DNA from: Patescibacteria group bacterium
GTDB lineage: Bacteria; Patescibacteriota; Patescibacteriia; Magasanikbacterales; UBA922
Length of the DNA stretch: 25,021 bases
Direction: 5' to 3'
Assembly (NCBI GenBank): GCA_038065575.1
Contig: JBBTQT010000136.1
Coordinates: 1-25,021 of the forward strand
Shown: positions 237-17,877 of the stretch, one piece after another
Position numbering within the stretch: position 1 is the first letter of the stretch
Layout: each line of letters starts with the position of its first letter
The notes under the pieces: model-generated
What the model saw: only the letters and a program-made list of their open reading frames with translations
Database searches by the model: none
What the model was told of the DNA's origin: nothing
Program-made: the position numbers and the translations under genes

Positions 237-495
237 AATTGTCATTCCAGCGAAGGCGGGAATCCAGAATTTGACTCAAATAGACGACGAACTGGATTCC
301 TGCTTTCGCAGGAATGACAGAAAACCGTATCCGGCGACAATCCAGAATCAATTGTCATTCCAGCGAAGGCGGGAATCCAGAATTTGACTCAAATAGACGA
401 CGAACTGGATTCCTGCTTTCGCAGGAATGACAGAAAACCGTATCCGGCGACAATCCAGAATCAATTGTCATTCCAGCGAAGGCGGGAATCCAGAA
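237..495. repeat. 113-bp tandem repeat (2 full copies plus a partial third), each unit an inverted REP doublet (BIME/REPIN-like)
   Basis: GTCATTCCAGCGAAGGCGGGAATCCAG starts at 241, 354 and 467 (period 113). The inverted partner CTGGATTCCTGCTTTCGCAGGAATGAC lies at 292-318 and 405-431. Spacers are identical between units. Confidence 0.95.
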
Positions 496-515
496 ACACA
501 AATAAACAAATAAAA

Positions 516-809
516 TTACTTAAACAATTTGTTATACAAATCCTTCCAGTTACAATTATTCTCCTCTATAAGTTTTAATTTCCAATCACGTTTCCAAATT
601 TTCAATTGTTTTTCTCTTTTTATGGCATCTTCTATTCTACCAAATACTTCAAAATACACTAGCATGTGAACTTGATACTTTTTGGTAAAACCTTTTACTA
701 TATCCAATTTATGTTCTTCAACTCTTCTTTTTAAATCATTAGTAACTCCAATATACAATGTGCCATTTTTTTGACTAGCCATAATGTATATGTAGAAGTT
801 AGTATGCAT
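516..809 (-). CDS. Short stand-alone GIY-YIG nuclease family protein (97 aa)
   Basis: YIYIMASQKNGTLYIGVT (GIY-YIG motif pair), RRVEEHK and REKQLKIWKRDWKLKLIE. Start moved to the ATG at 809 because the longer ORF only translates the REP (VIPAKAGIQ). Confidence 0.9.
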   Translation of the reverse strand: MHTNFYIYIMASQKNGTLYIGVTNDLKRRVEEHKLDIVKGFTKKYQVHMLVYFEVFGRIEDAIKREKQLKIWKRDWKLKLIEENNCNWKDLYNKLFK

Positions 810-7583: not shown

Positions 7584-7667
7584 GAATTACGAATTACGAA
7601 TTACGAATTTACGACTACGAAGTGCGTAAGGACACAATTCGTAATTCGTAATTTTTAATTCGTAATT
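7584..7667. repeat. Heptamer-armed inverted-repeat element (AATTACG family)
   Basis: Left arm (GAATTAC)x3 GAATT. Right arm GGACAC-AATTCGTAATTCGTAATTTTTAATTCGTAATT, which contains the stop codon of the upstream gene. Confidence 0.9.
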
Positions 7668-8593
7668 TTCTCGCGCCACCTCTCCCGATACTCCGCTCGC
7701 CGGTCGTTCTCGTGGAATTTCAGCATTTCATCATTCACGACGACGCCGATCCCGAGCGCGCGCCGTCGGTAATCATGATTTCCGGCTATTTTTTTCAACT
7801 GAATTTTTTTGCAAAAACCATTAAGGGCCTCGCCCGTTCGCCCGCTGAAAATTTTTTCAACCGCCGAGTGCGAAAAAAATTCCAATTTATTCAATTTGAC
7901 TTCTAAAATTGACGACAAACTGTAATTCGCGCGGTTATTTTTTACGAAATCGCGCGTCCAGGAATTTTCCGCCAAAACCCGGCAATAATACTCCGCCCCT
8001 CCATAAACCGGTAGGAGCATCAACAGCCAGTATATCAGGTAAACATCCGGAGGATCGAGAGAAACTCCGGACAAATTCAAACTGTTTTCCGTAACATAAA
8101 AACTCAAACAAACCCGATCGGCGATTTTGCGCCTTCCCCGGCGTAAGTTCGTGATACTCATGAGCAGGGTTACGAACATTCGAACGAGCCAGATTTTATC
8201 GTGAGCGGCCACGATAAACAAATCAATATCACTGTCCTTTTTCGGCCAGCCGGCCGCGAGCGTGTTGCAAACGAACACCGCTCGAACGAATGGCACACGG
8301 CTTATCATTTTGATGGCGCGACGGGCAATGCGCGTTTTATGCTCCACCAAAAGAACATTATTCAACCTGGTTTCAACAATTTTTTCCCGTCTCGGCAAAA
8401 AAAAGAAACCGTTTAGCCGACCAACCGATCCGGCCGTTATCGCGCGATCCAGAGCAAGCTGAAAATCAACGTGCGTGCCGCCAATCGGCCCGTCCCACAA
8501 GAAATGTTCCAGTTCGGACGCGGTGAGAGGATAATCAAAAATATCAAAATAAGCCAAAGTTTTTTTGATGCTGATGATAAAATCATCGATCAT
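7655..8593 (-). CDS. Nucleotidyltransferase-domain protein (CPR-type, N-terminal helical/wHTH region)
   Basis: KTLAYFDIFDYPLT at the N-terminus and the DSDIDLFIV Pol-beta-like NTase motif. Confidence 0.75.
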   Translation of the reverse strand: MIDDFIISIKKTLAYFDIFDYPLTASELEHFLWDGPIGGTHVDFQLALDRAITAGSVGRLNGFFFLPRREKIVETRLNNVLLVEHKTRIARRAIKMISRVPFVRAVFVCNTLAAGWPKKDSDIDLFIVAAHDKIWLVRMFVTLLMSITNLRRGRRKIADRVCLSFYVTENSLNLSGVSLDPPDVYLIYWLLMLLPVYGGAEYYCRVLAENSWTRDFVKNNRANYSLSSILEVKLNKLEFFSHSAVEKIFSGRTGEALNGFCKKIQLKKIAGNHDYRRRALGIGVVVNDEMLKFHENDRRAEYRERWREKITN

Positions 8594-8985: not shown

Positions 8986-9723
8986 TTATTTTTGAACGGT
9001 AAGCGCGCCGACATCGGTTCCGGTTTTTCGAAATAATATCATCTGTTGCGCGACGGTAAGCAGAGTGGACAAGAACCAATACAGCGTCAAGCCGGCGGGC
9101 ATTTTCATGCCGATGAACGCCGTCATAAGCGGCAGGAAATACAGCATCTGCTTGTTCATCATCGCGGTCATATTTTCATCCTTGGCCCCTTCTCCGGCCA
9201 CCTTCGGCGCTTTCTTTCTGATGAACATTTTTGATTGGAAGTATTGCGCCGCGCCGGCCAATAACGCCAGAACGATGCTGTTATTTTTCAGATCAAACAA
9301 TCCGAAAGTCACGGTATTCAGCTGTCCGGGATTGGTGACGAACGGATAAAGTTTGTCAAAATTATTTGACGCCAGGCCGGCCTGCAAAACCATATAAAGA
9401 GCGATGAATATCGGCAGTTGCACCAAAATCGGCAGGCAGGATCCGAGCGGATTGACTTTGTGTTCCTTGTACATTTTCATCGTCTCCTGCGCCAACAATT
9501 GTTTGTCATCCTTGAATTTGGCTTTCAATTCATCCAGTCGTGGCTGCATTTCCGATAAGGATTTCTGCGCCTTGATGGAAGATGCCGTCAACGGATAAAG
9601 CAATAATTTGATAACGACGGTAATGACAAGAATCACTACTCCCACATCCGGGATGAAATTATAAAGCAGAACAAATGAATTGAAGATTGGCTGATAAACA
9701 ACTGTTTGAAACAAAGCGATCAT
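8986..9723 (-). CDS. yidC: Membrane protein insertase YidC/Oxa1 (short form)
   Basis: KLLLYPL, QETMKMYKEHKVNPLGSCLPILVQLPIFIALY, PAGLTLYW. Start set at MIALFQ. Confidence 0.95.
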   Translation of the reverse strand: MIALFQTVVYQPIFNSFVLLYNFIPDVGVVILVITVVIKLLLYPLTASSIKAQKSLSEMQPRLDELKAKFKDDKQLLAQETMKMYKEHKVNPLGSCLPILVQLPIFIALYMVLQAGLASNNFDKLYPFVTNPGQLNTVTFGLFDLKNNSIVLALLAGAAQYFQSKMFIRKKAPKVAGEGAKDENMTAMMNKQMLYFLPLMTAFIGMKMPAGLTLYWFLSTLLTVAQQMILFRKTGTDVGALTVQK

Positions 9724-9727
9724 AGTC

Positions 9728-9888
9728 AATTACGAATTAAAAATTACTCGGCTTCGCTTCGCTACGCCGAGCAGGCGAATTACCGCGTCATTCTGATCGG
9801 AGCGAAGAATCCCTTTAGGGGAATTACGAATTAACGATTACGAATGCGAAAGCATGAACCCGCCGGACACAATTCGTAATTCGTAATT
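9728..9888. repeat. Heptamer-armed element whose left arm is interrupted by two palindromic inserts
   Basis: AATTACGAATTAAAAATTAC [29-nt insert 9748-9776] GAATTAC [37-nt insert 9784-9820, containing CGTCATTCTGATCGGAGCGAAGAATC] GAATTACGAATT ... GGACAC-AATTCGTAATTCGTAATT. Confidence 0.85.
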
Positions 9889-9942
9889 GCCACCATTATA
9901 CCACGAATAAAACCAATCCCGCCATTATTCTACCGCCGGTTT

Positions 9943-17745: not shown

Positions 17746-17877
17746 AATTACGAATTACAAATTACGAATTACGAATTTCAGATGGACGCCGGTAGACCTA
17801 TAGCCGAAACGGCTAGGATTATGCCTATATTTGGACAACGGACGCAATTCGTAATTCGTAATTTTTAATTCGTAATT
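17746..17877. repeat. Heptamer-armed inverted-repeat element (AATTACG family) with a 68-nt interior
   Basis: Left arm AATTACGAATTACAAATTACGAATTACGAATT. Right arm (17846-17877) is identical to 7636-7667. Internal hairpin TAGCCG-AAA-CGGCTA. Confidence 0.9.

What the first reader, a model, noticed from the sequence alone, without database searches (positions are those of the whole stretch)
9728..9888. Palindromic elements inserted at the same TTAC^GAA step inside a heptamer arm
Seen: deleting 9748-9776 and 9784-9820 restores AATTACGAATTAAAAATTACGAATTACGAATT, the exact reverse complement of the 32-nt arm at 7636 and 17846. The two inserts belong to different hairpin families, a TTCG..CTAC hairpin and a CGTCATTCTGA REP. 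Both sit between AATTAC and GAATT, with no obvious target duplication. Inference: the heptamer array is a landing pad for REP-like elements that insert cleanly, as HUH-type peel-and-paste elements do. This gives direct evidence of insertion order and target specificity.
Basis: seen in the sequence. Interest (0 to 1): 0.72.

Follow-up and report, generated by a model that had tools for sequence, protein, structure and literature searches.

The report
Nuclease-linked hairpins inside heptamer repeat arm
Two small DNA hairpins really do interrupt a 7-base repeat array at one step in a tiny groundwater bacterium, but they belong to repeat families tied to small GIY-YIG single-strand nucleases rather than to HUH transposases, and similar cases are already known.

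Summary
Removing 9748-9776 and 9784-9820 restores the 32-nt arm exactly, with one extra heptamer after it.

The arm belongs to a genome-specific family of about 100 intergenic inverted repeats built from AATTACG units.

Insert 1 is one of 38 copies of a stem-TTC-[GC..GC]-TAC-stem-CAGGC hairpin. About 30 copies sit in one orientation between AATTA(C) and (C)GAATT. They add no heptamer unit, so there is no 7-bp duplication. Two sister hairpin families use the same step.

Insert 2 is an NTS/SRM-type hairpin, the motif of Ssn GIY-YIG single-strand nucleases (Chenal 2025). Only this copy, out of about 130, has array on both sides. A 97% copy of the A+unit+E composite elsewhere does not resume the array.

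No HUH (Y1) transposase is found in the 96%-complete genome. It does hold four small GIY-YIG genes. One type lies within 6-162 nt of insert-1-type hairpins in nine genera (10 hairpins near the gene, 0 elsewhere in the loci).

In other genera these hairpins have no TTAC flank. No empty or half-filled orthologous site was found, and no insertion order can be read.

Closest known: cyanobacterial small dispersed repeats in heptamer arrays, and Ssn/SRM. This scan had already noted hairpins inside heptamer arrays in other CPR genomes.

The parts
9728..9747 (+). Outer part of the left heptamer arm: AATTACG AATTAAA AATTAC. It starts 4 nt from the yidC start codon.
   Evidence: The same 20-mer precedes many hairpin-A copies.
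9748..9776 (+). Insert 1, hairpin A: (C)TCGGC-TTC-GC TTC GC-TAC-GCCGA(G)-CAGGC. It could equally be placed at 9747-9775.
   Evidence: 38 copies in the genome, about 30 in the same heptamer step and orientation. Stems covary. It matches covariance model R1.
9777..9783 (+). One heptamer step (GAATTAC) between the two inserts.
   Evidence: The same A+GAATTAC+E composite occurs at C142:6107-6195 at 97% identity.
9784..9820 (+). Insert 2. CG + an NTS/SRM-like hairpin (CGTCATTCTGATCGGAGCGAAGAATCC) + CTTTAGGG. The 3' end ATCCCTTTAGGG is shared with the 27-nt F element.
   Evidence: It fits the CGTCATT...AATCC frame of the NTS/SRM motif (PMC11893778). 8 copies of this subtype and about 130 SRM hairpins in all. 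The shared 3' end is shown.
9821..9832 (+). The array resumes in phase: G AATTACG AATT.
9833..9870 (+). Interior loop of the element: decayed heptamers (AACGATT ACGAATG) ending in the conserved CGGACAC.
   Evidence: The GGACAC junction recurs in many copies.
9871..9888 (+). Short right arm, AATTCGTAATTCGTAATT, which pairs with the outer left arm.
   Evidence: Fold of 9725-9892: -33.2 kcal/mol, z -3.5.
7585..7667 (+). Uninterrupted reference copy of the heptamer-armed element. Its right arm is the 32-nt sequence and supplies the stop codon of ORF 7655-8593.
   Evidence: Fold -23.2 kcal/mol, z -7.6.
17746..17877 (+). Second reference copy, with the identical 32-nt right arm.
516..809 (-). Small stand-alone GIY-YIG nuclease gene (97 aa, P0003). 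It is framed by NTS-type hairpins (241-500 and 836-860) and is the candidate partner of insert 2.
   Evidence: Pfam GIY-YIG, E 1e-16. Flanks shown. Hairpin list.

Best explanation
The nusA-yidC spacer is filled by one copy of a genome-specific inverted-repeat element whose arms are AATTACG heptamer arrays. Two unrelated small hairpin repeats sit in its left arm. Both belong to repeat families that travel with small single-domain GIY-YIG (Ssn-type) single-strand DNA nucleases, not with HUH transposases.

Insert 2 is an NTS/SRM hairpin. Its cognate-type nuclease gene, itself framed by NTS hairpins, lies 9 kb away in the same window.

Insert 1 belongs to a second family (stem, TTC/TAC internal loop, short GC stem, CAGGC tail). 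In nine genera this family sits next to a second GIY-YIG subtype, usually beside a tRNA gene.

Shown:
- family membership of the two inserts;
- the gene-hairpin adjacency;
- the fixed step and fixed orientation;
- the absence of a duplicated unit.

Inferred: the hairpins entered the arm through single-strand events. The array can extrude as a hairpin and expose the TTAC/GAATT step. A nick beside a hairpin would be followed by copying or ligation. Copies were then multiplied among the near-identical arms, partly by arm-to-arm gene conversion. Insert 2 may have arisen by recombination with a resident F element that shares its 3' end.
For: - The reconstruction is exact.
- Hairpin A has 38 copies, about 30 as AATTAC|A|GAATT in one orientation. 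Families B (9 copies) and D (2-3 copies) use the same step.
- Unit counts: uninterrupted arms 1:15, 2:18, 3:1, 4:1; arms with an insert 1:6, 2:12, 3:1. No unit is gained.
- Each loop variant of A occurs behind several different arm variants.
- There are four stand-alone GIY-YIG genes of 79-97 aa.
- The window gene is framed by NTS hairpins, and the NTS consensus fits (PMC11893778).
- Near homologues of the C148-type nuclease there are 10 TTCG..CTAC hairpins within 300 nt (17,972 bp) against 0 in the other 68,760 bp of 30 loci, p 1.5e-7.
- All 19 genomes with a close homologue hold the hairpin. Co-occurrence is 50/11/15/31, odds ratio 9.4.
- The C64-type nuclease is flanked by D-like TCCCGAC..GTCGGGA hairpins in 12 of 14 loci.
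- Stems covary: 5 of 6 outer pairs and 2 of 4 inner pairs change on both sides.
- No Y1_Tnp, TnpB or IS110 gene was found.
Against: - No cleavage or insertion chemistry is shown for the second and third nuclease types. Whether they fall in the Ssn clade (CDD cd10448) could not be tested.
- GIY-YIG Ssn enzymes are only known to cut DNA, not to join it.
- In other genera the hairpins have no TTAC flank. The step preference may therefore reflect the arm rather than the hairpin.
- No empty or filled orthologous site was found.
- The co-occurrence counts are over related genomes and overstate independence.
- The outer stem of the hairpins used for the covariation count was a selection criterion.
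- The assembly has 148 contigs, so a transposase gene could be unassembled.
Confidence: 0.55

Rival explanations
1. Hitch-hiking and concerted evolution only. Each hairpin family entered a heptamer arm once or a few times. Everything else is amplification of the heptamer-armed element and homogenisation of its arms by gene conversion. On this view there is no landing-pad specificity at all.
For: - Arms are identical over 32 nt while the interiors differ strongly. That points to homogenisation.
- Most copies sit at the very same position of the arm, after AATTAAAAATTAC.
- The A+unit+E composite is duplicated as a block at C142.
- In other genera the hairpins show no TTAC preference.
- Both the arrays and the A expansion are confined to this genome among 107 of the family.
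Against: - A also sits after ACGAATTAC, AATAATTAC and ACTAATTAC, in tandem with and without a unit between copies, and outside arrays.
- Three to four unrelated stems (A, B, D, F) occupy the same step.
- Loop variants of A do not follow arm variants.
- The flanking arms of the duplicated composite differ at 3 of 20 positions while the composite is 97% identical.
Confidence: 0.25
2. HUH (Y1) peel-and-paste. An IS200/IS605-type or RAYT-type transposase inserts the hairpins 3' of TTAC as single strands.
For: - Insertion is clean and orientation-specific, 3' of a tetranucleotide, without duplication. TTAC is the IS608 target (established knowledge).
- Y1_Tnp genes occur in 38 of 107 genomes of the family.
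Against: - No Y1_Tnp match in this 96%-complete genome.
- Y1 genes of relatives are flanked by unrelated hairpins.
- The GTAG/CTAC motif lies in the internal loop, not at the foot of the hairpin.
- There is one hairpin, not two subterminal ones.
- There is no TTAC flank in other genera.
- The hairpins are adjacent to GIY-YIG genes instead.
Confidence: 0.08
3. Insertion through an RNA intermediate and reverse transcription. I recall this being proposed for the cyanobacterial small dispersed repeats; the paper could not be read here.
For: - The genome encodes one reverse transcriptase.
- The arrays lie inside operon transcripts.
Against: - The only RT sits next to a bAvd gene, which is the layout of a diversity-generating retroelement.
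- There are no poly-A or priming features.
- The hairpins are adjacent to DNA nucleases.
Confidence: 0.05
4. Coincidence: the reconstruction is an accident of low-complexity sequence.
For: The heptamer context makes in-phase resumption easier than in random DNA.
Against: About 30 copies have identical junctions. The reversed-genome control gives 2-6 matches per phase against 69. Shuffles give 0 matches.
Confidence: 0.02

Closest known systems
Small dispersed repeats (SDR) embedded in tandem heptamer repeats of Nostoc and relatives (Elhai et al. 2008, Genome Res 18:1484; cited in PMC3116915, PMC4390886, PMC13756078; full text not held, content recalled from memory)
   Same: Elements of 21-37 nt, several unrelated families with hairpin potential, sit at a fixed position inside tandem heptamer arrays. 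They show nested or adjacent occupancy, and no transposase is known.
   Different: The host here is a 1-Mb Patescibacteria genome. The sequences are different, and no comparison with SDR1-8 was possible. Here the hairpins can be tied to small GIY-YIG nuclease genes. Elhai et al. favoured RNA intermediates.
Ssn single-strand nucleases with NTS/SRM hairpin repeats (Chenal et al. 2025, PMC11893778), also described as CGTC-tagged REPs (Di Nocera et al. 2013, PMC3733652)
   Same: Insert 2 fits the CGTCATT..AATCC frame. The genome holds about 130 such hairpins and an NTS-framed 97-aa GIY-YIG gene. The hairpin-gene-hairpin layout is the same.
   Different: Insert 1 does not fit the SRM consensus and goes with a different GIY-YIG subtype, next to tRNA genes. 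Embedding in heptamer arrays is not part of the published description. No mobility mechanism is established for SRMs.
P6b stem-loop of the Nostoc tRNA-Leu(UAA) intron (Kaasalainen et al. 2015, PMC4476775)
   Same: A hairpin whose two arms are complementary 7-nt repeat motifs. Insertions create side stem-loops and tend to occur at the same position.
   Different: It lies inside a group I intron, at one locus per genome, with a different repeat sequence.
IS200/IS605 elements and REP/RAYT (REPIN, BIME) systems
   Same: Hairpin-based single-strand logic, no target duplication, mosaic intergenic arrays, and a TTAC target as for IS608.
   Different: There is no Y1 transposase here. GTAG is not at the foot of the hairpin. 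The elements have a single hairpin. The partner genes are GIY-YIG nucleases.
Intergenic heptamer direct repeats shared across phyla (TAACTGA arrays; MacGregor 2015, PMC4679880)
   Same: Short heptamer arrays that abut start codons, with a patchy cross-phylum distribution of one exact heptamer and no known mechanism.
   Different: Here the arrays are paired as inverted arms around a loop, and they carry inserted hairpins.

Membership tests
Ssn / SRM (NTS-like) system, insert 2 | The hairpin fits the oriented NTS/SRM motif (CGTCATT, palindrome, AATCC) | tested here: met
   9786-9812 reads CGTCATTCTGATCGGAGCGAAGAATCC, against the NTS CGTCATTCCCGCGMAVGCGGGAATCYRG. The stem of this copy is weak.
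Ssn / SRM (NTS-like) system, insert 2 | The genome encodes a single-domain GIY-YIG protein of about 95 aa flanked by the motif | tested here: met
   The gene at window 516-809 (minus strand) hits Pfam GIY-YIG at 1e-16. NTS-type hairpins lie on both sides.
Ssn / SRM (NTS-like) system, insert 2 | The protein belongs to CDD family cd10448 and cuts single-stranded DNA beside the motif | not testable with these tools
   No CDD library and no assay were available. The nearest solved structure is the UPF0213 protein 1ZG2.
Ssn / SRM (NTS-like) system, insert 1 | The hairpin fits the SRM motif | tested here: not met
   CTCGGC-TTC-GCTTCGC-TAC-GCCGAG-CAGGC has no CGTCATT or AATCC frame.
Ssn-like nuclease/hairpin pair (by analogy), insert 1 | Hairpins are enriched next to a small GIY-YIG gene across genomes | tested here: met
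   10 hairpins within 300 nt of the gene against 0 in the rest of 30 loci. Co-occurrence odds ratio 9.4.
IS200/IS605 or REP/RAYT (HUH) | A Y1 HUH transposase gene is present in the genome | tested here: not met
   No PF01797 match in a genome that is 96% complete in 148 contigs.
IS200/IS605 or REP/RAYT (HUH) | Insertion 3' of a fixed tetra- or pentanucleotide without duplication | tested here: inconclusive
   TTAC|G holds with no unit gained in this genome. However, the junction is ambiguous by 1 nt, and there is no TTAC flank in other genera.
IS200/IS605 or REP/RAYT (HUH) | A GTAG tag at the 5' foot of the REP hairpin, or subterminal hairpins at both element ends | tested here: not met
   CTAC/GTAG lies in the internal loop, and the element is a single hairpin.
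Cyanobacterial SDR elements | Dispersed repeats of 20-40 nt at a fixed position within tandem heptamers | tested here: met
Cyanobacterial SDR elements | Sequence or structural homology to SDR1-8 | not tested
   The paper and its sequences are not held.
MITE with terminal inverted repeats and target-site duplication | A target-site duplication flanks the insert | tested here: not met
   The unit count is unchanged by insertion.

The most novel reading that the evidence does not exclude
Small GIY-YIG single-strand nucleases, in at least three subtypes each with its own hairpin, may be the mobilising enzymes of a transposase-less class of hairpin elements. Heptamer arrays, which extrude as single-stranded hairpins, may be their preferred integration substrate. 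Heptamer arrays and nuclease-linked hairpins would then form one linked system across CPR bacteria, cyanobacteria and other phyla. That would also explain the 2008 cyanobacterial small dispersed repeats.
Probability: 0.15. Interest if true: 0.8.

Novelty: new variant of a known kind. Interest (0 to 1): 0.5.

Why it matters
How REP-like hairpins without a transposase spread is an open question. It was raised for CGTC-tagged REPs in 2013 and for the cyanobacterial small dispersed repeats in 2008.

This genome offers a compact natural test bed:
- dozens of near-identical target arms, some filled and some empty;
- at least three hairpin families;
- the candidate nuclease genes in the same 1-Mb genome.

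The link between a second hairpin architecture (TTC/TAC internal loop, CAGGC tail) and a second small GIY-YIG subtype beside tRNA genes extends the Ssn idea beyond the SRM motif. It can be tested directly with oligonucleotides.

For genome annotation, these modules fill intergenic spacers, reach to within 0-12 nt of genes, and supply stop codons.

Tried and rejected
- **Orthologous spacers in relatives.** nusA-yidC synteny is kept, but no arrays are present. The nearest genomes are other genera (at most 73% DNA identity in nusA), so no 0/1/2-insert series exists.
- **Exact-protein look-ups.** Four contigs from the same groundwater population have a spacer identical to the window.
- **Logan contigs of four runs.** The 'joints' are paralogous copies, not empty sites. 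Only contigs were available, no raw reads.
- **Heptamer pattern in 107 genomes of the family.** 63 matches in the own genome and 1 match elsewhere.
- **Y1_Tnp flanks in relatives.** No A-type or E-type hairpins.
- **TnpB and IS110.** Not found.
- **Reverse transcriptase.** It is the RT of a diversity-generating retroelement, paired with bAvd.
- **Rfam on the window.** No family matched.
- **Genes flanked on both sides by hairpin A.** A methyltransferase-like gene, a TsaD-family (TsaB-like) fragment and a hypothetical gene; none is a nuclease.
- **Folding energies of the two inserts alone.** No better than shuffles (z -0.2 to -1.3). Support for the stems comes from covariation, not energy.
- **7-bp target duplication as the origin of the arrays.** Rejected by the unit counts.
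- **Elhai 2008 full text.** Not held.
- **Complex prediction and structure prediction.** Not used. No verdict is given for protein-DNA jobs, and a GIY-YIG fold would not discriminate between the hypotheses.

Full report
**1. The observation**

The region reads: yidC start (ATG at 9723, minus strand), 4 nt, then AATTACG AATTAAA AATTAC. Next comes a 29-nt GC-rich block, then GAATTAC, then a 37-nt block, then G AATTACG AATT. A decayed interior ending in CGGACAC follows, and then AATTCGTAATTCGTAATT.

A script confirmed the reconstruction. The sequence left after removing 9748-9776 and 9784-9820 starts with the exact reverse complement of the identical 32-nt arms at 7636 and 17846. It then continues with one more AATTACG than those arms have.

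The flanking genes are yidC (60KD_IMP) and nusA.

The assembly is 1.07 Mb in 148 contigs, 46% G+C and 96% complete. It comes from a groundwater metagenome, judging by the contig names.

**2. What the arm is**

AATTACG arrays occur at about 104 loci in the genome. Many are inverted pairs of the form (AATTACG)n, variable interior, (CGTAATT)n. A recurring outer arm is (T)CAATTACGAATTAAAAATTACGAATTACGAATT, and a GGACAC junction is common.

- Tandem Repeats Finder gives 89 AATTACG arrays, plus AATT-based variants.
- The uninterrupted copy at 7585-7667 folds far better than shuffles (z -7.6).
- The elements fill intergenic spacers and usually reach to within 0-12 nt of both neighbouring genes.
- They show no preference for co-directional, convergent or divergent gene pairs relative to background (crude ORF calls).
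- The CGTAATT arm carries TAA in all three frames. It supplies, for example, the stop codon of ORF 7655-8593.

Among 107 genomes of the same family, only this one has the arrays (63 matches against a single match elsewhere). Orthologous nusA-yidC spacers of other genera lack them.

The same 18-mer, often also as inverted pairs, occurs sporadically in Nostocales, Bacteroidota, Acidobacteriota, Chloroflexota and other phyla.

**3. Insert 1**

The 29-mer has 38 copies. About 30 are flanked by AATTAC on the 5' side and GAATT on the 3' side, always in the same orientation relative to the heptamer.

- Most follow AATTAAAAATTAC.
- Others follow ACGAATTAC, AATAATTAC or ACTAATTAC.
- Some are tandem, with or without a unit between copies.
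- A few lie outside arrays.

Two sister families use the same step:
- B: CCGCCTTCGCCCTATCGGGCTACGGACGGGCGAGGC, 9 copies.
- D: CCCGAnnnnGTCGGGACAGGC, 2-3 copies.

A 27-nt element F (GAAAGACCCAGACTTATCCCTTTAGGG) also uses it.

A scan of all seven phases gives 69 in-phase interruptions at AATTAC|GAATTA. The other phases give 13-40, and those hits are mostly the same events shifted, or coding sequence. A reversed-genome control gives 2-6.

The junction of A, B and D is ambiguous by one base. One D copy fits only TTA|CG. TTAC|G is the only split that fits all the families.

No heptamer unit is gained on insertion. After the irregular unit, uninterrupted arms have 1, 2, 3 or 4 regular units in 15, 18, 1 and 1 cases. 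Arms with an insert have 1, 2 or 3 units in 6, 12 and 1 cases.

The architecture is a 6-bp outer stem, a TTC/TAC internal loop, a short inner stem that begins with GC, and a CA(A/G)GC tail. In an alignment of 21 distinct hairpins from several genera, 5 of 6 outer pairs and 2 of 4 inner pairs change on both sides. The outer stem was a selection criterion for that alignment; the inner stem was not.

**4. Insert 2**

9786-9812 fits the oriented CGTCATT..AATCC frame of the NTS/SRM hairpins of Ssn nucleases (PMC11893778). These were earlier described as CGTC-tagged REPs (PMC3733652).

The genome holds about 130 such hairpins in five or six subtypes. Only the window copy has heptamer array on both sides.

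Its subtype has 8 copies. The only other copy that touches a heptamer is C142:6107-6195, a 97% copy of the whole A+GAATTAC+E composite. There the array does not resume after E.

The 3' end ATCCCTTTAGGG|GAATTACG is shared with element F at C124:9336. The window copy may therefore be an SRM/F recombinant rather than an independent clean insertion.

By analogy with SsnA, which cuts 3 nt 5' of the NTS, a cut here would fall at TTA|CCG, one base from the proposed junction. This is inference only.

**5. The enzymes**

No Y1_Tnp, TnpB-type or IS110-type gene was found. The only reverse transcriptase is paired with bAvd, the layout of a diversity-generating retroelement.

Y1 genes exist in 38 of 107 genomes of the family, but they are flanked by unrelated hairpins.

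The genome does encode four stand-alone GIY-YIG proteins of 79-97 aa, 24-30% identical to one another.

- **Window gene (516-809).** It is framed by NTS hairpins.
- **C148 gene (P0001).** It has a B-like hairpin 103 nt away, beside a tRNA gene.
  - In 30 loci holding its homologues, 10 TTCG..CTAC hairpins lie within 300 nt of the gene (17,972 bp) and none in the remaining 68,760 bp, p 1.5e-7. Nine genera are involved.
  - Two of these hairpins are near-exact A-type hairpins.
  - A covariance model of the hairpin hits 65 of 107 genomes, with the highest count (54) in the own genome.
  - All 19 genomes with a close P0001 homologue have the hairpin. Overall co-occurrence is 50/11/15/31, odds ratio 9.4. 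The genomes are related, so this overstates independence.
- **C64 gene (P0002).** It is flanked in 12 of 14 loci by TCCCGA(C/T)..TCGGGA hairpins like family D. These are set in tRNA-Asp-like fragments.

The partner enzymes suggested by the data are thus small GIY-YIG single-strand nucleases, one per hairpin family.

**6. What remains open**

In other genera the same hairpins lie in unrelated flanks, often beside tRNA genes, and some form inverted pairs. None shows a TTAC flank or heptamers. The step preference is therefore a property of this genome's arms, not a fixed target of the hairpin family.

Arms are identical while interiors diverge. That points to homogenisation of the arms, which would also spread inserts. 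This rival explains much of the pattern. It fits less well with four observations:
- several unrelated stems occupy one step;
- A sits at several different steps;
- loop variants of A are independent of arm variants;
- the arms around the duplicated composite differ.

No orthologous empty or half-filled site was found. No insertion order can be read, because the two inserts are adjacent rather than nested.

**7. Comparison and verdict**

The phenomenon matches the cyanobacterial small dispersed repeats embedded in tandem heptamers (Elhai 2008). That content is recalled from memory; citations are.

It also matches the side stem-loop insertions at one position of the heptamer-armed P6b stem in Nostoc (PMC4476775). 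Insert 2 belongs to the Ssn/SRM system.

Earlier notes of this scan describe hairpins of this kind inside heptamer arrays, and mini GIY-YIG genes after tRNA genes, in other CPR genomes. The notes on this same window gave the lead to the Ssn paper, which I then checked myself.

Two things are new here. One is the quantitative case for a fixed, duplication-free, oriented step. The other is the link of a second and a third hairpin architecture to their own GIY-YIG subtypes.

Verdict: the feature is real and only partly as interpreted. It is a new variant of a known kind, of moderate interest.

Noticed in passing
G000 contig C64:2840-3245 (locus L203/L236); also L237-L249 in other genera: A 92-aa GIY-YIG gene sits beside tRNA-Asp. 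It is preceded by tRNA-Asp-like fragments in which a 17-nt TCCCGAC..GTCGGGA hairpin stands where the anticodon arm would be, and a 21-nt D-like hairpin splits the D-arm. The same layout recurs in 12 of 14 loci of other genera.
   Followed up: partly
G000 contig C95:6215-7330 (locus L145:1228-2701): A reverse transcriptase (371 aa) lies next to a bAvd-like gene. This is the layout of a diversity-generating retroelement, and it is the only RT in the genome.
   Followed up: partly
G000 contigs C46:about 1090-1200 and C110:6690-6760; single copies at C124:9336 and C63:4278: A 27-nt unit, GAAAGACCCAGACTTATACCTTTAGGT, occurs as tandem arrays. Single copies lie inside the same heptamer step. Its 3' end equals that of insert 2.
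   Followed up: partly
G000 C79:8862 versus C121:6098: Two D hairpins share stem and tail but have reverse-complemented loops (TAAAG versus CTTTG). This looks like loop inversion within a hairpin.
   Followed up: no
Loci L025-L104, e.g. L037 and L038 Chitinophaga, L045 Pyrinomonadaceae, L033 and L057 Nostoc: The exact heptamer AATTACG forms arrays, often as inverted pairs, in many unrelated phyla. In two Nostoc loci the array is interrupted by hairpin-bearing inserts at a different fixed step (AATTACG|...GT|ATTACG).
   Followed up: partly
window 7655-7667 and many other loci: Heptamer arms reach to within 0-12 nt of genes. The CGTAATT arm carries TAA in all three frames and supplies stop codons, for example for ORF 7655-8593.
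   Followed up: partly
Relatives: L166, L167, L171, L178: In several genera the 3' strand of an A-type hairpin stem is the first 6 nt of a tRNA gene (GCCGAG GTAGCTCAG...). The hairpin therefore overlaps the tRNA acceptor stem.
   Followed up: no
window 237-500: Three tandem copies of a 113-bp unit lie directly downstream of the GIY-YIG gene. Each unit holds an inverted pair of NTS-type hairpins.
   Followed up: no
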